Sequence record: NC_000866.4
Source: Escherichia phage T4
Strand: one strand, 5' to 3'
DNA length: 64,000 nucleotides
Part shown: positions 4,632-37,609 of the stretch, one piece after another
How positions within the stretch are numbered: the stretch's first letter is position 1
How the letters are laid out: every line of letters starts with the position of its first letter
The notes under the pieces: model-generated
What the model saw: the letters and a program-made list of their open reading frames with translations, nothing else
Databases searched by the model: none
Told to the model about the DNA's origin: nothing
Made by a program: the position numbers and the translations under genes

Positions 4632-5123
4632 ATGTTTGTAGATGATGTAACACGAGCGTTTGAATCTGGTGATTTTGCTCGACCTAACTTATTCCAAGTA
4701 GAAATTTCTTATCTTGGACAAAATTTTACGTTCCAATGTAAAGCTACTGCTCTACCAGCTGGTATTGTAGAAAAAATTCCAGTCGGATTTATGAACCGTA
4801 AAATTAACGTAGCAGGCGATCGTACATTCGATGACTGGACTGTTACAGTAATGAACGATGAAGCTCATGATGCTCGTCAGAAGTTCGTTGATTGGCAAAG
4901 CATTGCTGCGGGGCAAGGAAACGAAATTACTGGTGGAAAACCTGCAGAGTATAAAAAGAGCGCTATCGTTCGTCAATATGCTCGTGACGCTAAAACAGTA
5001 ACAAAAGAAATTGAAATTAAAGGTCTGTGGCCTACTAACGTGGGTGAACTTCAATTAGATTGGGATTCAAACAATGAAATCCAAACTTTTGAAGTAACTC
5101 TTGCTCTCGATTATTGGGAATAA
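4632..5123 (+). CDS. 19: Tail tube protein
   Basis: 163-aa ORF following gp18; T4 gp19 length and position. Confidence 0.93.
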   Translation: MFVDDVTRAFESGDFARPNLFQVEISYLGQNFTFQCKATALPAGIVEKIPVGFMNRKINVAGDRTFDDWTVTVMNDEAHDARQKFVDWQSIAAGQGNEITGGKPAEYKKSAIVRQYARDAKTVTKEIEIKGLWPTNVGELQLDWDSNNEIQTFEVTLALDYWE

Positions 5124-5155
5124 AATGAATGGGGAGAAATCCCCATCCTGCTTAA

Positions 5156-6780
<1,625 letters not shown>

Positions 6781-27453: not shown

Positions 27454-29505
27454 TTATCCTTGAACGAACTTGTAAGGCATGTTTGCAATATCTATGCAAG
27501 ACGCAATAATTCCAAGAGATGATTCTACTTTCTGTTTAACATTTGATGAAACAAATGATGCAAAGTCAACTCTATCTTCTATATCACCTGTCATTGTAAC
27601 CAATTCACCAGTTTCCATTAAATGGTCTCCGTCATAGATTACCGATTCGGTGAGTTCTTCTGTGGTCATAACTTCAGCTTGAATAAGCTTGTTGTTAGTT
27701 TTAACTGTTCCATCATTGTAAGATGCATCGGTTATTTTATTAACTTTGACCATTAATCCACGTGGCAAAATGACTTCCATTTCATTTGAAGGCGCTAAAC
27801 TTCCACCGGGTAAAACAACATTGACCTTATCAGCCCCAGTAATAACCCATCCAATTCCAACTAAATTATCGCTAGAATTTACAAGTCCTTCATCAGTTTT
27901 ATCAATAGAAACGCTTAAACGCTTTTCGTCTGGTAAAACACCTATAGATGAATCAGTCATCCAAGTACCAAAAATATTTGGATATAATGATGTTGACACA
28001 AAGTTTCTAAAATAAAAAACTCGATTTTTTACCATTGCTTCGTATATTGAAGGTAACATTCGTTGTGAACGATACAAAGTAATACCTTTTGGTAATCGTT
28101 CACCATTTTTAAAGGCTGAATCTAAATTATCAATAGCTTTTTCTATGTCAGATGCTGTCAAAATACTTGTACGCTCATCTGGATTATATAATCCCAAAAG
28201 AGCATTATTTATGTCTACATATCCTGAACCTACGTATTCACGAATTCCGCGTTTTTGCGCTGGTGTGTATTTAGATGAATCTTTATTTTCGACTATAGGA
28301 TGTAATGACCATCCAGCGGTAAGAGCATATCCACGTAATTCTCTTCGAATAATCTTTGTTTTTATTGCATTCCAAGAATTTTGTACTAACTCATTTGCAG
28401 CATCTTGGTTTAAATGCGAATGTTTGTTAATATTTCTTTCAAACCAAGCACCCTTATATTTTTCTAAAGTATCATCGACGATAGAAGCAATAGTTTCTAA
28501 GGTTTTTATTGAAGTAATAGATTCTTTTCGTAATCTTTCTAAAGCTTTATTTTTTATTTCTGCGTTAATAATGGATTCTTTATCTTCAGGAATTATAGAA
28601 GCTTCTCTGAATGCCATCCCAGCTGTAACACTGCTAAGAGCATTCTCTAGTGCAAATCCTGAAGTAGAAATTACCGTTAATTCATTAGAATCAGAAATTA
28701 AAGGCGCGTCCGCTGGTTTATTTAATTCGGCCGCTGAAGCCTCAAATTTTTGAAACATTGGTGTTTCAAATCTAGAAGATTCCAATGACTGACTTTGCGC
28801 AATTGCTCTACGGGAAATTTTAACTTTAACGATTACAGCTTGGTCAGAACGTTTATCATTTTCTTGCGCAATAGATGCTGCAATTGCCTCATTTTTAGTT
28901 ACTTGAGCCCCAGTATCTTTATTGATATAAACATCACCGACCTTCGATTCAACTTTAGTAAAGAGCTCGGTACTAATTTCCGGAACTCCTGGAATGTCTT
29001 CTAGTGATACATTTTTGCGATGTATAAGAATATATGCATACTTTTTATCGTAATCCCAGAGTTCCTTAAGAAGGACGTATCTACCACCTGAACGACTACG
29101 GATAAGTCTATCAGCAATAACTTGAATTTGTCGAGCTTGGCCAGCAGTTTTAGACTTAAGAATACGGAGCATACAGGCATCAATTTTATACTGGCGCATT
29201 GTTTGCATTGCAACAGTAAAAACTGAATTGATATAATTAATTGGGCTTGGACCAAGACCTTTTAATTTAGCAATTGAACCTTTAGCAGTTAATGTAAAAG
29301 GAACAATATGCATCATTTTATCGCCCATCTTTAAATCACGATTAGTATCACCTCCAGATGTATAGGTACATAAACGAAAGCCTGGTTGTTCAATTGCATC
29401 ATCAACATGAACTGAAAAAATTTGCGGTATTTTCTTCTTTGGATATAAGTTTGTAATTGGAAGAGTAGTATCTTCGTCAAATAATTCTGTAATAAGTTCC
29501 ATCAT
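27454..29505 (-). CDS. alt: ADP-ribosyltransferase, packaged head protein
   Basis: 683-aa ORF (two consecutive ATG; the second at 29502 gives 682 aa); R / STS / E-x-E triad elements (YRSQR, FVSTSL, NEMEV); TATAAATA on minus strand upstream. Confidence 0.93.
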   Translation of the reverse strand: MMELITELFDEDTTLPITNLYPKKKIPQIFSVHVDDAIEQPGFRLCTYTSGGDTNRDLKMGDKMMHIVPFTLTAKGSIAKLKGLGPSPINYINSVFTVAMQTMRQYKIDACMLRILKSKTAGQARQIQVIADRLIRSRSGGRYVLLKELWDYDKKYAYILIHRKNVSLEDIPGVPEISTELFTKVESKVGDVYINKDTGAQVTKNEAIAASIAQENDKRSDQAVIVKVKISRRAIAQSQSLESSRFETPMFQKFEASAAELNKPADAPLISDSNELTVISTSGFALENALSSVTAGMAFREASIIPEDKESIINAEIKNKALERLRKESITSIKTLETIASIVDDTLEKYKGAWFERNINKHSHLNQDAANELVQNSWNAIKTKIIRRELRGYALTAGWSLHPIVENKDSSKYTPAQKRGIREYVGSGYVDINNALLGLYNPDERTSILTASDIEKAIDNLDSAFKNGERLPKGITLYRSQRMLPSIYEAMVKNRVFYFRNFVSTSLYPNIFGTWMTDSSIGVLPDEKRLSVSIDKTDEGLVNSSDNLVGIGWVITGADKVNVVLPGGSLAPSNEMEVILPRGLMVKVNKITDASYNDGTVKTNNKLIQAEVMTTEELTESVIYDGDHLMETGELVTMTGDIEDRVDFASFVSSNVKQKVESSLGIIASCIDIANMPYKFVQG

Positions 29506-29748: not shown

Positions 29749-31208
29749 AGACCAGTTACCTCATGAAAATCACCAAATACATCTTCGAATGTATTAGCTT
29801 TAGTTTTATCTTCACGTAAACGAATCGCAATCGGAAGAAATAATTTAACGTAATCAGTGCGGCCATCAGATTTTAACCAACCGTTGCATTCGCACTCTAG
29901 AATTTTTCCAATATAATAATTTTGGTTTTCCATAATGCGAGTACGGTCAAGTTCATGCGATTTTACACCGGCTTTATCTTTTAAGCCTGAACCAGCATTT
30001 ACCTTAATTTTTCCACACTCTGACTCAAGAATAAATCCACCCGCTTTAGTAGGGTCTTTACGGTGAGGATAAATTCCTACAATTTTTAAATCAACATCAA
30101 TTACTTCTTTAAATTTATAAAGATTTTTTGAACGAGCATTTTCCCATAATCCATCGATATTTTTGAGAATAATACCTTCAAGACCTTGGTCAATATACTT
30201 TTTATAAATTACCTTAGCTTCATCTAGGTTATTTACTACCTGGTTTTCAATTAAAATTACTTTATCATATCCAGATGTCATTTGTTCTAGTTTAGAAAAA
30301 CGTACATCATATTTCAAACGAAATGCAGGAAGACTGTATATTTCTACCAACGGGACATAATCCCAGACCTGAAACTTCATGCATTGTGCTTCTTTTTCAG
30401 AAATGGTTCCCTTTAAAGATTTATTGGCGATTCCATTAGAAGCAGTACGTGATTCAGCTACTTCGGCGAATTCTTTAGCTTTACTGTTTTCAGGATAAGC
30501 ATCAAAAAGAAAATCTAGGCCTTCTGGCTCCTTTTTAACTTGCTCATGGTATACCAATTCGCCATCAATCAACACACCTTCTGGATGAATCTGGCGGGCT
30601 TCAGCGGTCATTTTAATTAACTCTTCCTTAAGAAGATCTAATCCTAGATATTCATTACCAGCTCGTGATAAAAGACGAACATCATCTAATTCATCACCTC
30701 TAACTTCAGCAAAACACCGAGCTCCATCAGCTTTTAACTGAGCAAAGGCTGGAAATTTGATATTCTTATTAATGCCTTTTTCATCATAAGAACTTGCGAG
30801 CATTTGAGGTTGTTCAGGAATTAAACCTGGCCAAACTTTGTTTGCAATAGATACTGAAGCACCACATTCAAGGTCTCGCATCATCACTCGACGCAAAACT
30901 TCAACATCATCTTTTTTACCATCGGTGATATATCCAGTTAATTCCTCAATTGCTGCATTTCCAGTCAATTTCCGAGTAGCTAATGTGAATTCAATGAAGT
31001 CAAGCATATCGGTAAGAGTCAACATTCCAAAACTCTGGGTAGCAATACCAGGTTTAGGCCATTTCTTGATATAATACTGTAACCCACGAGAATAAGTCAG
31101 ACGATATACTCGTTTAAGCAATTCATTATCTTTATTCTTTTCAAGAATTGCTTGCTTCTGTTTAGTTGAACCAATAGATGCTATTTCGTTCAGAATTTTA
31201 AGAATCAT
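29745..31208 (-). CDS. 30: ATP-dependent DNA ligase
   Basis: 487-aa ORF with adenylation motif I (LKADG); T4 DNA ligase length. Confidence 0.96.
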   Translation of the reverse strand: MILKILNEIASIGSTKQKQAILEKNKDNELLKRVYRLTYSRGLQYYIKKWPKPGIATQSFGMLTLTDMLDFIEFTLATRKLTGNAAIEELTGYITDGKKDDVEVLRRVMMRDLECGASVSIANKVWPGLIPEQPQMLASSYDEKGINKNIKFPAFAQLKADGARCFAEVRGDELDDVRLLSRAGNEYLGLDLLKEELIKMTAEARQIHPEGVLIDGELVYHEQVKKEPEGLDFLFDAYPENSKAKEFAEVAESRTASNGIANKSLKGTISEKEAQCMKFQVWDYVPLVEIYSLPAFRLKYDVRFSKLEQMTSGYDKVILIENQVVNNLDEAKVIYKKYIDQGLEGIILKNIDGLWENARSKNLYKFKEVIDVDLKIVGIYPHRKDPTKAGGFILESECGKIKVNAGSGLKDKAGVKSHELDRTRIMENQNYYIGKILECECNGWLKSDGRTDYVKLFLPIAIRLREDKTKANTFEDVFGDFHEVTGL

Positions 31209-31474
31209 TGTTCATCCTTTAGAGTTTGGTTTACAGCTCTATTATAAATCAATTCATCATTAAGCTCAGTCAAAGACCTGTGGTACGTGGTTCTAACTTT
31301 ATTTCCTTGCATCCAGTGCTTGATATAAATGAAACCTTGCTCTACACATTTTTTAAAAATTCGTTCGTCTTTTTGAGCTCGGAATTCTGGATTGCATCTA
31401 AAAAATTGATTTACGTGACCGTAATCACGTGTAGTATTACCTTCATTTTCATAAATAGTGTGAACAACAAACAT
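31205..31474 (-). CDS. Hypothetical protein (T4 30.x cluster)
   Basis: 89-aa ORF with ATG start overlapping neighbour. Confidence 0.65.
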   Translation of the reverse strand: MFVVHTIYENEGNTTRDYGHVNQFFRCNPEFRAQKDERIFKKCVEQGFIYIKHWMQGNKVRTTYHRSLTELNDELIYNRAVNQTLKDEQ

Positions 31475-32310
31475 TAGAATGCTCCTTGGAAAATATTATC
31501 ACCACAAGTAGGTCTATTATACAAATACTCTATACCGCCGGGCTTAATATAGTTCCATGTCTGAAACGGATGCGTCTGATATGGATGATATGGATTATAA
31601 GGATTAAATCCAGGAGTTCTCCAGGTAGTGTTCCAAGGAAAAGAATCGTTTTTAATCATCTTTTCAATTACATCTTTTATAGCTTTTTCACTATCAAAAC
31701 TTTCTTTATTTTCCTTTGGTGAAAAAAGCTTATTCTCTACATCGTTCCATGTATAAACTCGCTGAGCAGTTTTTGGAATATTGTCACGCTCTCCTCGAGC
31801 CATCCAATACACAGGAACACGTAATATTTCACTCGCGTGATCGCAGTGGTGAGCGAGATCGTCAATATAACAAATTACGTTATATTTCTCTTTTGCTTTT
31901 TTGAACAACTCTTCTTTTGAAGAATCATGACTACACATCAGTACTTCTGAGAAAGCACCAGGAAAAAGAGCATTCAAATTAAATTGACGATTTAATAGAG
32001 CGTCAATAGAATCACCCAATGCTGTAACAGCAACAAAATTATAATCTTCTTTTAATTTGTTAATTACACACAGAGCATCTTTATATGGAGACAAGTAACG
32101 AATAAAATCCGAACGATTGTATTTTTCAATTAACTTGACGCCAAGTTCTTCATCACAGTTAAAGAGTTTACCAGGAGAAATAAATTTCTCATCTTGGATC
32201 ATTTTTAAAATATGTTCTAACGGAAGATTATATTTCTGAGCAAAATAAGGAAGGCCTGATTGCCAGCTTAAACATACTCCATCAATATCAGTTAAAATAG
32301 TAGGCTTCAT
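31474..32310 (-). CDS. HAD-superfamily phosphatase / nucleotidase-like protein (T4 30.x cluster)
   Basis: 278 aa; N-terminal ILTDIDGV matches the HAD motif I (DxDGx); later acidic YIDD resembles the metal-binding motif. Confidence 0.75.
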   Translation of the reverse strand: MKPTILTDIDGVCLSWQSGLPYFAQKYNLPLEHILKMIQDEKFISPGKLFNCDEELGVKLIEKYNRSDFIRYLSPYKDALCVINKLKEDYNFVAVTALGDSIDALLNRQFNLNALFPGAFSEVLMCSHDSSKEELFKKAKEKYNVICYIDDLAHHCDHASEILRVPVYWMARGERDNIPKTAQRVYTWNDVENKLFSPKENKESFDSEKAIKDVIEKMIKNDSFPWNTTWRTPGFNPYNPYHPYQTHPFQTWNYIKPGGIEYLYNRPTCGDNIFQGAF

Positions 32311-32771
32311 AGAGAGTCTCTTAATAGGTTTAACACATCAATAAATTCAGCTTCGGTTAGTATTGTATCATCTTTTGTTAGACCACTAGCAATGCTGTGC
32401 TTCAAAACTTTTCCTTTCGAGGCTTGTAATGCATCACGAAAGCCCTTGTTTTGAATCGCTGCTTCAAAATATGCATTTGTGTATAATTCTTTCCACGCCG
32501 GGGAGTATCTTGAAAACGGAACTCCAAGCCAAAAGAGGGTCCCACGGTCCTGAGCTCTAGCATAAGACCTTCCAGCTTGTTGGGCGGCAAGCCCGGATAA
32601 CCCAAATATACGACGTTGTTGTTCAACATTTTTCACCTTACACCCTTGGAGGAATCCTTCAAGACCTCCAAATTGAATACCATCCATAACGAAAGGCCAT
32701 TGGGCGAAATTACTTAATGCACATGATGGCCACCTAAAATTGCTTCTAATCTCTAACTCAGACATTTTCAA
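32307..32771 (-). CDS. NADAR (YbiA/DUF1768)-like protein (T4 30.x cluster)
   Basis: 154 aa; LSNFAQWPFVMDGIQF...EGFLQGCK resembles the YbiA-family core FSNFAAWPIKVDGKTW...EHYFQAQK. Confidence 0.7.
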   Translation of the reverse strand: MKMSELEIRSNFRWPSCALSNFAQWPFVMDGIQFGGLEGFLQGCKVKNVEQQRRIFGLSGLAAQQAGRSYARAQDRGTLFWLGVPFSRYSPAWKELYTNAYFEAAIQNKGFRDALQASKGKVLKHSIASGLTKDDTILTEAEFIDVLNLLRDSL

Positions 32772-32964
32772 TGCTTATAATTTCAACATCAGCCCAATGA
32801 CCATAGCAAGGAAGACGAAATTCAACTGGCCAGTTAGGGTCCCTTTCTAATATAATAGACTCAACTTGTGGTTCTTCGTGTTCATCAGTATACGGATTTT
32901 TATCTGTTACTTTATATGTGACCTTAATGTACTGAATTCCAAAAATCTTATTAATTATATTCAT
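32758..32964 (-). CDS. Hypothetical protein (T4 30.x cluster)
   Basis: 68-aa ORF, overlapping neighbours. Confidence 0.55.
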   Translation of the reverse strand: MNIINKIFGIQYIKVTYKVTDKNPYTDEHEEPQVESIILERDPNWPVEFRLPCYGHWADVEIISIENV

Positions 32965-33158
32965 ACTAATTCCTTTAATCCGTAGATAGGAGATAATTCA
33001 TCACCCATACGAAGGTCTTCATTTCCATCTACCCAGGAAACAATATAAGCCTCTTTTATTTGAATACCACTCCATTTAAATGGAGGTAGAACCTTAGAAA
33101 TTAATCCAGGTATACCAACTCCCTTTAATTCAACAGTTTGACCTAAAAAGAATTTCAT
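32961..33158 (-). CDS. Hypothetical protein (T4 30.x cluster)
   Basis: 65-aa ORF, overlapping neighbours. Confidence 0.55.
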   Translation of the reverse strand: MKFFLGQTVELKGVGIPGLISKVLPPFKWSGIQIKEAYIVSWVDGNEDLRMGDELSPIYGLKELV

Positions 33159-33445
33159 TAGAACCTCATCTGAAAACCGTGCGATTTAACATTACCGCCG
33201 CCAATATCAGAAATGTTAATTTCACGCGCAATTGAAGGGTCAATGTCAATTTCACGATTGAGTTTAGTGATAGCTAAAGTATCACGCCCATTTACAGTAC
33301 GGAACTCTAAAGGACAAACCACATCAACGTAGTTTTTAATCGATTCGCTAGTAAGTTGCAAATGTGCAGGAAGGTCTTTAGGTGCCTTTGAGAAAACCAC
33401 TTCACAGAAATTTTTGCGGGTATCAAAATAAGTAGTCATAAACAT
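33158..33445 (-). CDS. Hypothetical protein (T4 30.x cluster)
   Basis: 95-aa ORF; AGGAAAA RBS; hairpin upstream. Confidence 0.6.
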   Translation of the reverse strand: MFMTTYFDTRKNFCEVVFSKAPKDLPAHLQLTSESIKNYVDVVCPLEFRTVNGRDTLAITKLNREIDIDPSIAREINISDIGGGNVKSHGFQMRF

Positions 33446-33486
33446 AATATTTTCCTCAGTAAGGGGCTGAAGCCCCTCATTTTATT

Positions 33487-33852
33487 TTAAATATCAAATT
33501 CATTAAGAACTACATCAAAGATTGCTTCAAGATGCTCAGGTTTAGCTCTGTTACTCAGAATATGACGAATCCAAGTTTTAACTAAGAGTTTACGATTAGC
33601 ACCATTCCAGCAAGGATGAGTCCCTAAATCGCGTTGGCGGAAATCATCATCCAGAGCGATTTTGAAGTTGGAACCTTTCATCGTGATTGAAACCGTGATA
33701 CCGTTTTCAAATCGCATATAAACGTAGTTAGGAGTCATATACTGTTCAATTTCGCATACTGATCCATTTTGATGTTTCCAGAGGCAAATAGTATCAATAG
33801 AACCTGCAATACCATTAGAAACATATTTACGTTCAAAGTTAATGTAGTTCAT
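33487..33852 (-). CDS. Hypothetical protein (T4 30.x cluster)
   Basis: 121-aa ORF with ATG start. Confidence 0.6.
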   Translation of the reverse strand: MNYINFERKYVSNGIAGSIDTICLWKHQNGSVCEIEQYMTPNYVYMRFENGITVSITMKGSNFKIALDDDFRQRDLGTHPCWNGANRKLLVKTWIRHILSNRAKPEHLEAIFDVVLNEFDI

Positions 33853-33920
33853 TTTTATTCTCCGAGATGTTTAATTGCGGTACAGGTATATAATATCATA
33901 TCCTGTACCAAAGTAAACAA

Positions 33921-34253
33921 TTATTTTACTACTTTCCAATGCTGCATGTCAAGTTTACCAACTTTTTTCATCTTCTCAATTAAGCGTTCTGCACGTTGGC
34001 GAGCTGTAACATAATGCCATTCGCCTAATTCATTTTGTTCAATTTTTCCAACGATTACTGTATTCAATTCATAAATCCAACCAGTAAAGAAATTATGAAC
34101 TTGAATTGTAAAGGTGAAATCTGTTCCCATACCTTCTGTTGTTTCTACTTCAATAATATCACCTTCAACTGCCATTAAGAACCACATAGTTTCATCATAT
34201 TTACCATTGAAGCATTTAGTTTTAACTGCAGCGTTCAGATTAATCGTTTTCAT
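33921..34253 (-). CDS. Hypothetical protein (T4 30.x cluster)
   Basis: 110-aa ORF with AAGGAG RBS, just downstream of an early promoter. Confidence 0.65.
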   Translation of the reverse strand: MKTINLNAAVKTKCFNGKYDETMWFLMAVEGDIIEVETTEGMGTDFTFTIQVHNFFTGWIYELNTVIVGKIEQNELGEWHYVTARQRAERLIEKMKKVGKLDMQHWKVVK

Positions 34254-34281
34254 TTTATTCTCCTTTGTTTGTGTAAGATAA

Positions 34282-34311
34282 TACTATCACAAAGGAACTA
34301 TACTGTAAACA
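34282..34311 (-). promoter_or_regulatory. Early sigma70-like promoter in the 30.x cluster
   Basis: Minus strand GTTTACA - 17 nt - TAGTAT, upstream of the 110-aa ORF (AAGGAG RBS). Confidence 0.55.
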
Positions 34312-34329
34312 ACTTTGTGCAATCTTTGG

Positions 34330-34358
34330 AAAATAAAAAAGGACTCCCGAAGGAGTCC
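34330..34358 (-). terminator. Terminator at the end of the 30.x cluster
   Basis: Minus strand GGACUCC-UUCG-GGAGUCC then UUUUUUAUUUU. Confidence 0.75.
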
Positions 34359-34363
34359 TCAAC

Positions 34364-34540
34364 TTATGCTTTCTGCTTACCAAAACGAGAAGCATCATCT
34401 CGAAGAACCGCACGTGCTCGGCGCATGATCTTCTCAACAGTTTGATTGATACGAGAGTTCGACCCACGCTTGTAGCCAGCGCGTTTAGAATCACCAACTT
34501 TCTTTTCAACTGCTTTCTTTGCTTTAGCTTGTTTTGCCAT
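34364..34540 (-). CDS. Small basic protein (58 aa, T4 30.x cluster)
   Basis: Taken from the first ATG (MAKQAKAKK...); Lys/Arg-rich; hairpin terminator immediately downstream. Confidence 0.5.
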   Translation of the reverse strand: MAKQAKAKKAVEKKVGDSKRAGYKRGSNSRINQTVEKIMRRARAVLRDDASRFGKQKA

Positions 34541-34784
34541 TATAAATTCTCTTTTAAATGAAAATGCAGGACTTATTGGCATTGCCTGCGCAAGCCCTCA
34601 AGGGGAACATAGGTTTTTGGATATTTAACGACCAGGATAACCATAAACCCGTCATCATTCACATTCAAGAGGTACACCGTAAAACTGTCGGGGTCTTAAA
34701 ACTATAATGATTCGCAAATCATTAATCAGACAGTTCGACGGCTCCTCGATTTAGCTCACACTAAGGCAGTGAATCTCCAATAAA

Positions 34785-35033
34785 TTACTTCAGTGTTACC
34801 ACAAAGTGACGAACTGCTTTTCGTGCAGCAGAAGCCAGAGGCTTAGCATATTTAAGTTCATCTTTTTCCTGAAGCTCAGCAGCTAATGCAGTTTGAGCAG
34901 GATTCAGATGTTTGAAATAACGCAGGATTTCAAGAGCTTCGGCTTCAACATCAATAGATGCGCCATAGTTTTCGTGACCATTATTCCATGCGTTTCGTTG
35001 CAGTTCAAGAGCGTGTTGTAATTGTTTAATCAT
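34785..35033 (-). CDS. rIII: Lysis inhibition accessory protein
   Basis: 82-aa ORF; T4 rIII length and position. Confidence 0.88.
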   Translation of the reverse strand: MIKQLQHALELQRNAWNNGHENYGASIDVEAEALEILRYFKHLNPAQTALAAELQEKDELKYAKPLASAARKAVRHFVVTLK

Positions 35034-35180
35034 TTAAAAATTCTCGTTAGAGATTAAAACTCGGTAGTCACGTTCTTCTGAATTTCATCTTCTTTCGACA
35101 GATCTCTCAGTTGTAGACTACCACATAGAATTGTTCGGTTAACTTATTATTCCGACACCCAATTCATATTATTATTTATA

Positions 35181-35516
35181 TCACTTATAAAGACACGGAA
35201 TAGCTTTATAGTGACAGGTAACGAATTTTTGTTTAATTTCTTTTGGCTGCTTAAGACCCAGAGCTACAAAAGGATGCGGAACATTTCGAATTTGACCAAC
35301 TGGAAGAGAAGTCAAATCACCAACTTCGCAGAAACCTTCAGGAACATCAGGACCGACAGAGTGAACTACACACAGTTCAGGAACTTCACCTTGAACACGT
35401 TTACCGATAATAAGTCCTGATTCTGTAACTTCTTCATCACCGGCTTGTGCAGGTTCAGAAACTAAAATAACATATTCACCGACAGCACGAATTGGTAGCT
35501 GTTGTACTTCAGACAT
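35181..35516 (-). CDS. 31: GroES-like co-chaperonin for capsid folding
   Basis: 111-aa ORF beginning [22 protein letters not shown], recognised as T4 gp31. Confidence 0.95.
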
Positions 35517-35546
35517 CGTTTTTCCTTTTTGTTAACAGATGAATTA

Positions 35547-35573
35547 ATAATAACAAATAGTTCTTAAAGCATT
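35547..35573 (-). promoter_or_regulatory. MotA-type middle promoter candidate for gene 31
   Basis: Minus strand AATGCTTTA - 12 nt - TATTAT, upstream of the gene 31 ATG. Confidence 0.5.
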
Positions 35574-35881
35574 TATTTACCAATAAATTGAAGCAAATGC
35601 TCAACTTTCATACCATTAACGGAAATCAATTTGTCAATAGAAAAACCTCGCCACGCACCAAGCTCAACATCAAATACTGGAATCATGTCAGTAGATTCTT
35701 TCCGAGTAGATTCAGTCAATTTGCCAGTTTGCATGGTTGGCATAAAGTCTGCATCACGAGTACCTTTCATAGTACGAATAGTACCATCAGACTTTTCAAA
35801 AACTACGTTTGAAACACCCATGGACAATTTAGTTTTCAAAATTTCACGAATTGCTACTTTCTGCTCAGTTGTCAGTTTCAT
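35573..35881 (-). CDS. 31.1: Hypothetical protein
   Basis: 102-aa ORF; name by synteny. Confidence 0.7.
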   Translation of the reverse strand: MKLTTEQKVAIREILKTKLSMGVSNVVFEKSDGTIRTMKGTRDADFMPTMQTGKLTESTRKESTDMIPVFDVELGAWRGFSIDKLISVNGMKVEHLLQFIGK

Positions 35882-36118
35882 TTATTTACCTATTACAGTT
35901 TTAATATGAGTTGTTCCACGTTCTTTAAGGGTGGAAAGTAATTTTTGGCATTTTTCTAAATCAGATTTCCAACTATATGGTCTATCAATACAAACCCAAT
36001 TTGTCTTATAATACTGTTTCCATTTAGAGAAAAAATATTTCTTATACTCTACAGCAAATGAGATGTTCTCGTTAGAATAAGAACTAATTGCTGTGAGTTT
36101 TACCAAACGAAATTTCAT
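35882..36118 (-). CDS. 31.2: Hypothetical protein
   Basis: 78-aa ORF abutting cd; name by synteny. Confidence 0.65.
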   Translation of the reverse strand: MKFRLVKLTAISSYSNENISFAVEYKKYFFSKWKQYYKTNWVCIDRPYSWKSDLEKCQKLLSTLKERGTTHIKTVIGK

Positions 36119-36699
36119 TATTCACCACAGAATTCGTTGATATTTTCCCAGTTTAACTTATTCAAGTTTTTCTTAGGAACATTAAACACTTCAATACCTG
36201 CATTTCGCAGAATATCATCCCAACCGGGTTTATTTTTGTCGTATGTTTCACAATAAACCAGCTTTTTAATACCAGATTGAGCTATCGCTTTTGCGCAATC
36301 TGGACAAGGAGAAAGTGTTACATACATAGTAGCACCTTCAATAGAAGAACCATTTCGTGCAGCAAACAAAATTGCATTTAGTTCAGCATGAATTTCATTT
36401 TTAGATGACCATTCCGAGTGAGCACTACGATGTTCTTTCGCCAAAACAAAACGATCAGTTGAACCAAATGATACGCATTCAGGCTTATGACCTTGAATGA
36501 TAGCATGTTTAGGCTTATTCAACAACCATCCTTGCTCAGCAGCATAATCACAACAGTTCACACCCCCTGCGGGTGAACCATTATACCCAGTAGAAATAAT
36601 ACGTCCATTCTTTTCAATTACTGCTCCTACCTTCCAGGAGCAACATTTTGATTCCTGCGATACTAAATATGCAATTTGAAGTACTGTACTCGCTTTCAT
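36118..36699 (-). CDS. cd: dCMP deaminase
   Basis: 193-aa ORF with zinc-deaminase motifs HAE and PCPDC; T4 cd length. Confidence 0.95.
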   Translation of the reverse strand: MKASTVLQIAYLVSQESKCCSWKVGAVIEKNGRIISTGYNGSPAGGVNCCDYAAEQGWLLNKPKHAIIQGHKPECVSFGSTDRFVLAKEHRSAHSEWSSKNEIHAELNAILFAARNGSSIEGATMYVTLSPCPDCAKAIAQSGIKKLVYCETYDKNKPGWDDILRNAGIEVFNVPKKNLNKLNWENINEFCGE

Positions 36700-37034
36700 T
36701 TCATAATCACCAGATAAGCAGATTTAGCAGTTTCAACACGATAAATTTCGTGACGAAGTTTAGTTATACTTTTAATAACAGAACTAATTATATTCTGCCC
36801 ATCTTTAAAGCGGTTTTTCTTATCAATAAAAACTGCGCCAGTCATCTTTTTGTGAAGCTCAACTGGATACTTCGTCACAATAATAGCATCATACACAGAA
36901 GGATGAATACTATTCACCAGAGTATCATTCATTAAAGTTATTCTAATGAACTGTGCTGTTTCAGAATCAAGCGCTCTATGATCGCCAGTATCATTTTCAA
37001 GACAATTATCAATTATATCAGTTAAATTCATCAT
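36696..37034 (-). CDS. cd.1: Hypothetical protein
   Basis: 112-aa ORF; name by synteny. Confidence 0.65.
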   Translation of the reverse strand: MMNLTDIIDNCLENDTGDHRALDSETAQFIRITLMNDTLVNSIHPSVYDAIIVTKYPVELHKKMTGAVFIDKKNRFKDGQNIISSVIKSITKLRHEIYRVETAKSAYLVIMK

Positions 37035-37261
37035 AGTACGCCATACACCCTTTGTGCTTCAACTAATCCATCAAAATCCAGTTTAAGATGCGATATTTGA
37101 TCGCCATCACCTGGATTCACAATTACTAATACTGAACGAGGAGTTTCGGTAATAACACGAACCGATGTTTCAGGAAATCGTTCAGAAACCTTATTTACTA
37201 ATTCCTGCGCAAATAGTTTAACTTTTTCTTGGAATTCCTTTAACAGTAATCGGTTTTTCAC
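37031..37261 (-). CDS. cd.2: Hypothetical protein
   Basis: 76-aa ORF; ORF-track start is GTG directly after a stop, so the true start is uncertain; early promoter upstream. Confidence 0.55.
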   Translation of the reverse strand: MKNRLLLKEFQEKVKLFAQELVNKVSERFPETSVRVITETPRSVLVIVNPGDGDQISHLKLDFDGLVEAQRVYGVL

Positions 37262-37301
37262 TTAGCAACATTTTGTTTTCCTCATTTGTTTTGGTAGAGC
37301 T

Positions 37302-37331
37302 ATAATATCACAACTCTACCGTAAAGTAAAC
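37302..37331 (-). promoter_or_regulatory. Early sigma70-like promoter upstream of cd.2
   Basis: Minus strand GTTTACT - 17 nt - TATTAT. Confidence 0.5.
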
Positions 37332-37333
37332 CA

Positions 37334-37609
37334 TTAAATCGCTTTGAATTCCGCAGTTTGAGATTCAAAGCGAATATCGCCTTTGATAACAAGCTCAGCA
37401 TCAAGACCAAATACGACAATGATATGCGCGGAACCTGGATACAGTGTAATGGCAATAGAATCCACCTGGTCTGGAAGCAAAGTGTTCAATACATGAGTCA
37501 CTTGAGCATGGATTCGAAGCTCAGCTGCGTTATCAAGTTTTTCAAACATATTATTAGCGATAATTTGGCTAAACACTACTTCTACGATTTTAGAGTAAGT
37601 CGGAAACAT
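37334..37609 (-). CDS. cd.3: Hypothetical protein
   Basis: 91-aa ORF; name by synteny. Confidence 0.65.
   Translation of the reverse strand: MFPTYSKIVEVVFSQIIANNMFEKLDNAAELRIHAQVTHVLNTLLPDQVDSIAITLYPGSAHIIVVFGLDAELVIKGDIRFESQTAEFKAI

What the first reader, a model, noticed from the sequence alone, without database searches (positions are those of the whole stretch)
32307..32771. NADAR (YbiA-like) protein in the early gene cluster after DNA ligase
The 154-aa ORF carries the conserved NADAR core (LSNFAQWPFVMDGIQF...EGFLQGCK), close to the E. coli YbiA motif. NADAR enzymes include ADP-ribosyl-guanine hydrolases that reverse DarT-type DNA ADP-ribosylation, so an early phage copy is a plausible counter-defence or DNA damage-control factor. 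It sits in the least characterised stretch of the window. That role is inference; I do not know whether it has been tested for this protein.
Basis: partly seen in the sequence, partly recalled or inferred. Interest (0 to 1): 0.55.

Follow-up and report, generated by a model that had tools for sequence, protein, structure and literature searches.

The report
T4 AdfN, a known anti-DarT enzyme

Summary
The window is phage T4 (NC_000866 96001-160000). The ORF is gene 30.3, annotated 32307..32765 on the minus strand, 152 aa from an ATG.

The protein matches Pfam PF08010 (Phage_30_3, E 5e-71), not the NADAR model PF08719. Three results still place it in the NADAR superfamily:
- 40 of 94 relatives also hit PF08719.
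- A family profile aligns to E. coli YbiA (hhalign 94%, E 1e-7).

The catalytic Glu36 and Lys43 are present. His123 replaces the third acidic residue, which marks the phage clade.

The proposed function has been tested. Johannesman et al. (Nat Commun 2025) renamed gp30.3 AdfN and showed it is necessary and sufficient for resistance to DarTG1. It removes ADP-ribose from DNA in vitro. RB69 is sensitive because of a one-base frameshift, which I reproduced here. In vitro work (2024, 2026) and a transposon screen (2025) agree.

Verdict: correct and already known. Still open are the T-even factor AdfN needs for full activity and the role of the adjacent HAD nucleotidase-like gene 30.2.

The parts
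32307..32765 (-). Gene 30.3 / adfN coding sequence (152 aa plus TGA stop), ATG start
   Evidence: ORF list. T4T and X53848 annotation. Pfam PF08010 at E 4.8e-71. Identified as AdfN in PMC11825919.
32658..32660 (-). Codon GAA for Glu36, a catalytic residue that contacts the distal ribose of ADP-ribose in NADARs
   Evidence: Read from the sequence. Invariant in 94 homologues. Aligns to YbiA E48. E36A is inactive in vitro.
32637..32639 (-). Codon AAG for Lys43, the second conserved catalytic or ADPr-binding residue
   Evidence: Read from the sequence. At least 90% conserved. Aligns to YbiA K55. K43A is impaired in vivo.
32397..32399 (-). Codon CAC for His123, at the end of the last beta-strand. 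It replaces the Glu of the YbiA family and the Asp of the DarG1 family and marks the phage gp30.3 clade.
   Evidence: Invariant H123. hhalign ends at T4 K122 aligned to YbiA V124, so H123 corresponds to YbiA E125. The literature describes this His as the phage-clade signature.
32310..32354 (-). Codons 138-152, the C-terminal alpha-helix, which RB69 loses through a frameshift
   Evidence: AF2 helix 138-151. RB69 has an extra T at gene position 411, giving a stop after Thr137. The truncated T4 protein has reduced activity.
32758..32765 (-). 8-nt overlap between the end of gene 30.4 and the start of 30.3 (ATGTCTGA)
32307..32310 (-). ATGA overlap: the 30.3 stop codon and the 30.2 start codon, suggesting translational coupling
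   Evidence: Sequence. Annotation.
32402..32629 (-). Gene 30.3', a 75-aa ORF in another reading frame inside 30.3. Its annotated ribosome-binding site is at 32636..32640.
   Evidence: Annotation. Pfam DUF2883. The protein is listed as detected, early class. It is cut to 34 aa in RB69.
32362..32387 (-). Annotated middle promoter PM30.2, inside the 3' part of 30.3, which drives 30.2 and the genes downstream
   Evidence: X53848 feature 553-578, converted to window coordinates.
31474..32310 (-). Gene 30.2, the downstream neighbour: a HAD-superfamily hydrolase that resembles 5'(3')-deoxyribonucleotidases. It is context, not shown to be part of the mechanism.
   Evidence: AF2 model with Foldseek. 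Profile hit to 2jao. Invariant DxD motif. Conserved position next to gp30.3 homologues.

Best explanation
The ORF is T4 gene 30.3 (adfN). It encodes a minimal, core-only NADAR-fold N-glycosidase. DarT1, the toxin of the host DarTG1 toxin-antitoxin defence, ADP-ribosylates guanine in phage DNA and so blocks replication. AdfN is transcribed early in infection. It hydrolyses the bond between guanine and ADP-ribose, which restores unmodified guanine and lets replication proceed. In effect the phage carries an orphan copy of the antitoxin's enzymatic activity.

The active site uses Glu36 and Lys43 on the conserved SNF...EGFLQ..K segment, plus the clade-specific His123. The C-terminal helix (residues 138-151) is needed for full activity.

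Shown here: the gene's identity, the fold, conservation of the catalytic residues, and the RB69 frameshift. Shown in the literature: the genetics and the enzymology. Inferred: the exact chemical role of His123, and the reason the enzyme works fully only during T-even infection.
For: Identity: about 100% to T4 over the region; annotated gene 30.3.

Family: PF08010 at E 4.8e-71. 40 of 94 homologues also hit Pfam NADAR PF08719, best E 4.8e-7. A family profile hits YbiA 2b3w. hhalign against YbiA gives 94.2% probability, E 1.1e-7, over T4 residues 15-122.

Residues: E36 and H123 are invariant and K43 is at least 90% conserved.

Natural loss of function: the RB69 allele has a T insertion at position 411, giving a 137-aa product. 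This matches RB69's published DarTG1 sensitivity.

Literature:
- Deleting adfN in T4 and T2 abolishes plaquing on DarTG1. Ectopic adfN rescues RB69. E36A, K43A and the truncation are impaired. Purified protein removes ADPr from DNA. There is no two-hybrid interaction with DarT1 and no effect on DarTG2.
- In vitro hydrolysis of G-ADPr but not T-ADPr. G-ADPr but not C-ADPr is removed.
- Transposon insertions in 30.3 are lost on DarTG1 hosts.
- The transcript is in the early class.
Against: - The T4 protein does not hit the Pfam NADAR model directly, and phmmer finds no solved NADAR structure. NADAR membership therefore rests on profile and structure comparison.
- E36A and K43A still rescue partially when overexpressed.
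- AdfN does not neutralise DarT1 in uninfected E. coli, and it rescues T5 and Bas25 only weakly. The simple 'free enzyme erases the mark' picture is therefore incomplete.
- In one proteomic time course the protein accumulates in the late class.
- The Toxins 2024 methods give 'residues 1-208' for the T4 construct, which does not match 152 aa.
Confidence: 0.93

Rival explanations
1. AdfN mainly acts on soluble, low-molecular-weight ADP-ribose derivatives or ADP-ribosylated nucleotides, for example ADPr-dGMP released when modified DNA is degraded. It might work together with the adjacent HAD nucleotidase-like gp30.2 as a module that cleans up the nucleotide pool. On this view, repair of polymeric DNA is only part of its role.
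For: Comparative genomics proposed soluble ADPr derivatives as the preferred substrates of phage NADARs. gp30.2 has a 5'(3')-deoxyribonucleotidase-like HAD fold and overlaps 30.3 by ATGA. A HAD or NT5C gene directly follows the NADAR gene in 7 of 13 phages sampled. Two of these are vibriophages with different flanking genes. AdfN needs an unidentified T-even factor for full activity.
Against: Purified AdfN alone removes ADPr from DNA. Ectopic adfN alone fully rescues RB69, although RB69 has its own 30.2. The transposon-screen text names only adfN as conditionally essential on DarTG1. Six sampled phages have the NADAR without an adjacent HAD gene. The pairing could simply be inherited gene order.
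Confidence: 0.08
2. The protein's main or additional targets are ADP-ribosylated RNAs (tRNA or mRNA guanosines) or by-products of RNA repair. It would then counter RNA-directed ADP-ribosyltransferase defences.
For: gp30.3-family genes sit inside tRNA gene clusters in Aeromonas phage B614 and Ralstonia phage RSP15. In Sinorhizobium phiN3 the gene lies near a tRNA nucleotidyltransferase and an RNA ligase. Representatives of all NADAR families are reported to remove RNA G-ADPr in vitro. The AdfN authors raise this possibility themselves.
Against: In T4 the gene is not near the tRNA cluster. The demonstrated phenotype is against a toxin that modifies DNA, and DNA de-modification was shown directly. 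No RNA-related phenotype has been reported for T4 adfN.
Confidence: 0.1
3. It is a housekeeping YbiA-type N-glycosidase that acts on riboflavin-pathway intermediates for metabolic damage control, and is unrelated to defence.
For: E. coli YbiA is the best Foldseek match and the only match by sequence profile. The shared motif is SNFAxWP...E...Q..K.
Against: The defining YbiA-family Glu in the last strand is replaced by His123. The gene is dispensable on plain K-12 and essential only when DarTG1 is present. YbiA itself does not protect against DarT1 in vivo.
Confidence: 0.02
4. It is a stoichiometric inhibitor that binds and blocks DarT1, as AdfA does, and catalysis is incidental.
For: The E36A and K43A mutants keep partial rescue when overexpressed.
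Against: The bacterial two-hybrid assay shows no AdfN-DarT1 association. Catalytic mutants are impaired in vivo and E36A is inactive in vitro. The enzyme also acts on DNA modified by the unrelated transferase ScARP.
Confidence: 0.02

Closest known systems
AdfN (T4 gp30.3), anti-DarT factor NADAR; Johannesman et al., Nat Commun 2025 (PMC11825919)
   Same: It is the same gene and protein. The sequence is 100% identical to the T4 30.3 records. Residue numbering E36/K43 and the RB69 frameshift at position 411 are both reproduced here.
   Different: Nothing differs in the protein.
DarG1, the DarT1-associated NADAR antitoxin (BC4488 family; G. lovleyi NADAR, PDB 8bat; E. coli C7 NADAR)
   Different: AdfN has no adjacent DarT gene. 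It lacks the basic N-terminal extension of DarG1 (152 aa against 219). It has His123 where DarG1 has the catalytic Asp. It cannot act as an antitoxin in uninfected cells.
E. coli YbiA (PDB 2b3w) and the YbiA NADAR family
   Same: Best sequence and structure match. The SNFAxWP and E-x6-K motifs are shared. YbiA also hydrolyses G-ADPr in vitro.
   Different: YbiA has Glu125 where AdfN has His123. YbiA is chromosomal and sits in a LexA-controlled operon with housekeeping or riboflavin damage-control roles. It also removes C-ADPr, which the T4 enzyme does not.
AdfN-Bas32 and AdfN-Bas60, NADARs of T5-like and Vequintavirinae phages
   Same: They are phage-encoded NADARs that counter DarTG1 and are specific for guanine.
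   Different: They belong to different NADAR clades and were acquired independently. They neutralise DarT1 without phage infection and rescue unrelated phages, whereas AdfN-T4 works fully only in T-even infection.
AdfA (T4 gp61.2) and AdfM (T4 Tk.4 macrodomain)
   Same: They are other T4 anti-DarT factors.
   Different: AdfA is non-enzymatic and binds DarT1. AdfM is a macrodomain directed against DarT2 (thymidine-ADPr). Going by their T4 coordinates, both genes lie outside this window (for 61.2).

Membership tests
NADAR superfamily (YbiA-like fold) | An alpha+beta YbiA-like fold: a helical core flanked by small beta-sheets | tested here: met
NADAR superfamily (YbiA-like fold) | A conserved catalytic Glu and Lys seven residues apart on the active-site helix, after the SNF motif | tested here: met
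   E36 is invariant and K43 is at least 90% conserved. They align to YbiA E48 and K55 and to the E..K pair of P. nicotianae NADAR.
NADAR superfamily (YbiA-like fold) | A polar or charged catalytic residue in the last beta-strand: Glu in YbiA, Asp in DarG1/BC4488, His in phage gp30.3 | tested here: met
   H123 is invariant. It lies at the end of strand 120-122 and is the residue after the hhalign end point, T4 K122 aligned to YbiA V124, so it corresponds to YbiA E125. This is the phage variant described.
NADAR superfamily (YbiA-like fold) | N-glycosidase activity on guanine-linked ADP-ribose | not testable with these tools
   Reported for this protein in vitro.
Pfam PF08719 (NADAR model) | A score above the model's gathering threshold | tested here: not met
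   The T4 protein gives no PF08719 hit at E <= 1. 40 of 94 homologues hit it at E <= 0.01. This is a limit of the model, not of the superfamily assignment.
Pfam PF08010 Phage_30_3 / phage NADAR (AdfN-T4) clade | A score above the gathering threshold, with a core-only architecture | tested here: met
DarG1 antitoxin (DarTG1 toxin-antitoxin system) | Encoded next to a DarT1 ADP-ribosyltransferase gene | tested here: not met
   The neighbours are 30.4 and the HAD-like 30.2. PADLOC gives no hit. The gene is an orphan.
DarG1 antitoxin (DarTG1 toxin-antitoxin system) | Catalytic Asp in the last strand, plus the basic N-terminal extension | tested here: not met
   His123 takes the place of the Asp. 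The protein begins about 10 residues before the conserved core.
YbiA family (riboflavin damage-control N-glycosidases) | A conserved Glu in the last strand (YbiA E125) | tested here: not met
   His123 occupies this position in all 94 family members.

The most novel reading that the evidence does not exclude
The unidentified T-even factor that AdfN needs for full activity could be the translationally coupled downstream gene product gp30.2. Here gp30.2 is shown to be a HAD-fold, 5'(3')-deoxyribonucleotidase-like hydrolase. A HAD or NT5C gene directly follows the phage NADAR gene in seven sampled T4-like phages, including two vibriophages with different flanking genes. The pair could form a two-enzyme module that clears ADP-ribosylated guanine nucleotides or DNA ends as well as repairing polymeric DNA.
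Probability: 0.07. Interest if true: 0.45.

Novelty: already known. Interest (0 to 1): 0.12.

Why it matters
It shows how a lytic phage disarms a toxin-antitoxin defence by carrying an orphan copy of the antitoxin's enzyme. That has already been published for this exact gene, so the scan finding adds no new biology.

The remaining value is modest:
- The gene start is corrected.
- It documents that a direct Pfam NADAR search gives a false negative for this clade.
- It yields testable leads on the still-unknown T-even cofactor, namely the neighbouring HAD nucleotidase-like gp30.2 and the overlapping 30.3' gene.

Tried and rejected
- Direct phmmer of gp30.3 against PDB sequences returned only a chance hit at E 0.68.
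- Pfam at E <= 1 gave no NADAR (PF08719) hit for the T4 protein.
- NCBIfam and PADLOC gave nothing. PHROGs gave only 'unknown function' families.
- The sigma-70 promoter and terminator scan of 31000-37500 found no more sites than shuffled sequence (24 against 22.4 expected). The candidate early promoter at 33952..33923 upstream of 30.7 is therefore only a suggestion.
- A literature search for gp30.2 found nothing relevant.
- I considered whether the overlapping 30.3' ORF could explain the phenotype or be the missing cofactor, and rejected it. It is cut to 34 aa in RB69. The RB69 defect maps 3' of it, at position 411. It is carried on the same adfN plasmids that still fail to rescue T5.
- I considered a link to the nearby Alt ADP-ribosyltransferase gene (27454..29505). 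The proximity is conserved gene order, and there is no evidence that NADARs reverse protein ADP-ribosylation.
- I considered DarG1 membership and rejected it: there is no adjacent DarT, no N-terminal extension, and His stands in place of Asp.

Full report
**1. What is at the coordinates**

The window region is phage T4. Bases 31400-33500 match T4 records at about 100%. Over 9.1 kb the window differs from T4T (HM137666) at a single base, 32843, which lies in gene 30.4. Published NC_000866 coordinates for gene 30.3 (128307..128765) equal the window coordinates plus 96000.

It is annotated 32307..32765 on the minus strand and gives 152 aa from an ATG. That TTG is TTA in RB69 while the ATG is conserved. 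The published residue numbers Glu36 and Lys43 fit only the ATG start.

The gene overlaps its neighbours at both ends. It shares 8 nt with the end of 30.4, and its TGA stop shares ATGA with the start of 30.2. Inside it lie two further annotated features:
- an out-of-frame 75-aa gene, 30.3' (32402..32629);
- the middle promoter PM30.2 (32362..32387).

**2. Is it a NADAR?**

A direct Pfam scan gives only PF08010 'Phage_30_3' (E 4.8e-71). It gives no hit to the NADAR model PF08719, even at E <= 1. phmmer against PDB sequences finds nothing meaningful.

Indirect evidence is strong:
- Of 94 full-length homologues collected from metagenomes and phages, 40 also match PF08719, best E 4.8e-7.
- A profile of the family hits E. 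coli YbiA (2b3w) on the SNF...E...K segment.
- hhalign against YbiA gives 94.2% probability, E 1.1e-7, over T4 residues 15-122.
- Plain BLASTP gives 33% identity over 57 residues.
- An AlphaFold2 model built on this alignment is confident (pLDDT 93.4, pTM 0.89).
- Foldseek's top three PDB matches are YbiA, Geobacter lovleyi NADAR (8bat) and Phytophthora NADAR with ADP-ribose (8bau).

Catalytic residues:
- Glu36 is invariant and Lys43 nearly so. They align to YbiA E48 and K55.
- His123 is invariant. It sits at the end of the last strand, where YbiA and Phytophthora NADAR have Glu125 and DarG1 has Asp.
- This histidine is the described signature of the phage 'gp30.3' NADAR clade.
- The protein consists of the NADAR core only and has no DarG1-type N-terminal extension.

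**3. What it does: already established**

Johannesman et al. (Nat Commun 2025, PMC11825919) mapped DarTG1 resistance of T-even phages to the 3' part of gene 30.3 and renamed it adfN. They showed:
- T4 and T2 deletion mutants no longer plaque on DarTG1 hosts.
- Ectopic adfN fully rescues RB69.
- E36A, K43A and a C-terminal truncation are impaired.
- Purified AdfN removes ADP-ribose from DarT1-modified DNA, and E36A does not.
- AdfN does not bind DarT1 in a two-hybrid assay.
- It has no effect on DarTG2.

Other work agrees:
- Cihlova et al. (Toxins 2024) showed in vitro hydrolysis of guanosine-ADPr but not thymidine-ADPr. They saw no antitoxin activity in uninfected cells.
- A 2026 study found the T4 enzyme removes G-ADPr but not C-ADPr.
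- A transposon screen (HIDEN-SEQ, bioRxiv 2025) found 30.3 dispensable on K-12 but lost on DarTG1 hosts.
- Earlier comparative genomics had already listed T4-like NADARs as early genes.

I reproduced the natural loss-of-function allele. RB69 has an extra T at gene position 411, which gives a stop after Thr137 and removes the C-terminal helix. This agrees with the paper.

The protein falls in the late-accumulating class in the Wolfram-Schauerte 2022 data set.

**4. Mechanism and open points**

The best-supported mechanism is enzymatic erasure of the DarT1 mark on phage DNA, by hydrolysis of the bond between guanine and ADP-ribose. Glu36 and Lys43 hold the distal ribose and diphosphate, and His123 stands in for the usual acidic residue.

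Not explained:
- AdfN-T4 does not protect uninfected cells from DarT1.
- It rescues T5 and Bas25 only weakly.
- The authors infer an unidentified T-even factor.

**5. Context**

The family is widespread. tblastn finds it in 1509 phage records, mostly Straboviridae infecting Escherichia, Klebsiella, Aeromonas, Acinetobacter and Vibrio. It also occurs in Sinorhizobium, Rhizobium and Ralstonia phages.

The downstream gene 30.2 has no Pfam or NCBIfam hit, but it is a HAD-fold hydrolase:
- D8, D10, K132 and R172 are invariant, and T96, D150 and D151 are nearly so.
- The N-terminal domain is modelled with pLDDT above 90.
- Foldseek hits are HAD phosphatases and cytosolic or mitochondrial 5'(3')-deoxyribonucleotidases at E about 1e-7.
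- A family profile hits 2jao at E 0.045.

A 30.2-family gene follows the NADAR gene in T4, RB69, Acinetobacter KARL-1, Providencia PSTRCR_127 and Klebsiella VAC13. In vibriophages K567 and VH7D the overlapping downstream gene is a Pfam NT5C deoxyribonucleotidase (E 6.5e-11 and 3e-12), and it is flanked by gp47/46 rather than ligase.

Six other sampled phages lack this pairing. In two of them (Aeromonas B614, Ralstonia RSP15) the NADAR gene sits within tRNA clusters. gp30.2 and gp30.3 have almost the same taxonomic distribution, 1438 against 1509 records.

This is compatible with a functional pair or with inherited gene order. The transposon-screen text names only adfN for DarTG1, so I rate gp30.2 as the cofactor at under 10%.

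**6. Verdict**

The function has been demonstrated experimentally for this exact protein since 2024-2025, so the finding is already known and of low interest as a discovery.

The residual questions are the cofactor, the role of His123, the overlapping 30.3' gene and the HAD neighbour.

Noticed in passing
window 31474..32310 (-), gene 30.2: This 'hypothetical' protein is a HAD-superfamily hydrolase that resembles 5'(3')-deoxyribonucleotidases. It has the DxD motif at D8/D10, and the Foldseek hits are cdN, mdN and YfnB at E about 1e-7. Its last ~80 residues are modelled with low confidence. Its start overlaps the adfN stop (ATGA). A HAD or NT5C gene directly follows the NADAR gene in 7 of 13 sampled phages, including two vibriophages with different flanking genes.
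   Followed up: partly
window 32402..32629 (-), gene 30.3': This 75-aa ORF lies in another reading frame inside adfN, with its own annotated ribosome-binding site and its own Pfam family (DUF2883). It is listed as a detected early protein in a T4 proteome table. In RB69 it is cut to 34 aa, so it is not conserved even among close relatives. Any adfN deletion or plasmid also removes or carries this ORF.
   Followed up: partly
window 32362..32387 (-): The annotated MotA-dependent middle promoter PM30.2 lies inside the 3' part of the adfN coding sequence. Deleting adfN may therefore alter expression of 30.2, 30.1 and the ligase gene 30.
   Followed up: no
L008 (Aeromonas phage B614) 5001..5450; L009 (Ralstonia phage RSP15) 4995..5513; L014 (Citrobacter phage Moon) 2501..2944; L007 (Sinorhizobium phiN3) 5007..5462: In B614 and RSP15 the gp30.3-family NADAR gene is embedded in a tRNA gene cluster. 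In Moon a tRNA cluster lies 1.4 kb upstream. In phiN3 the gene is near a tRNA nucleotidyltransferase and an RNA ligase. This hints at an RNA-related role for some family members.
   Followed up: partly
window 32843 (gene 30.4): This is the only difference from T4T HM137666 in 9.1 kb: C in the window, T in T4T. It changes one residue of gp30.4 relative to that record.
   Followed up: partly
window 27454..29505 (-), gene alt: The virion-packaged ADP-ribosyltransferase Alt is encoded about 3 kb from the ADP-ribosyl-guanine hydrolase gene. The order NADAR, HAD, ligase, alt is conserved in Acinetobacter phage KARL-1. No functional link was tested.
   Followed up: no
literature: PMC11125620, methods section: The T4 NADAR construct is described as 'gp30.3; residues 1-208', but T4 gp30.3 is 152 aa. 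The discrepancy is unexplained. It may be an error or reflect tag or linker residues.
   Followed up: no
window 33923..33952 (-) and 34339..34360 (-): There is a near-consensus sigma-70 site (TTGACA-18-TAAAAT, 11 of 12) just upstream of gene 30.7. There is also a terminator-like hairpin with a T-run in the 30.9-30.8 intergenic gap, overlapping the 3' end of 30.9. Together they could bound an early transcription unit running 30.7 through adfN to gene 30. The scan as a whole found no more sites than chance.
   Followed up: no
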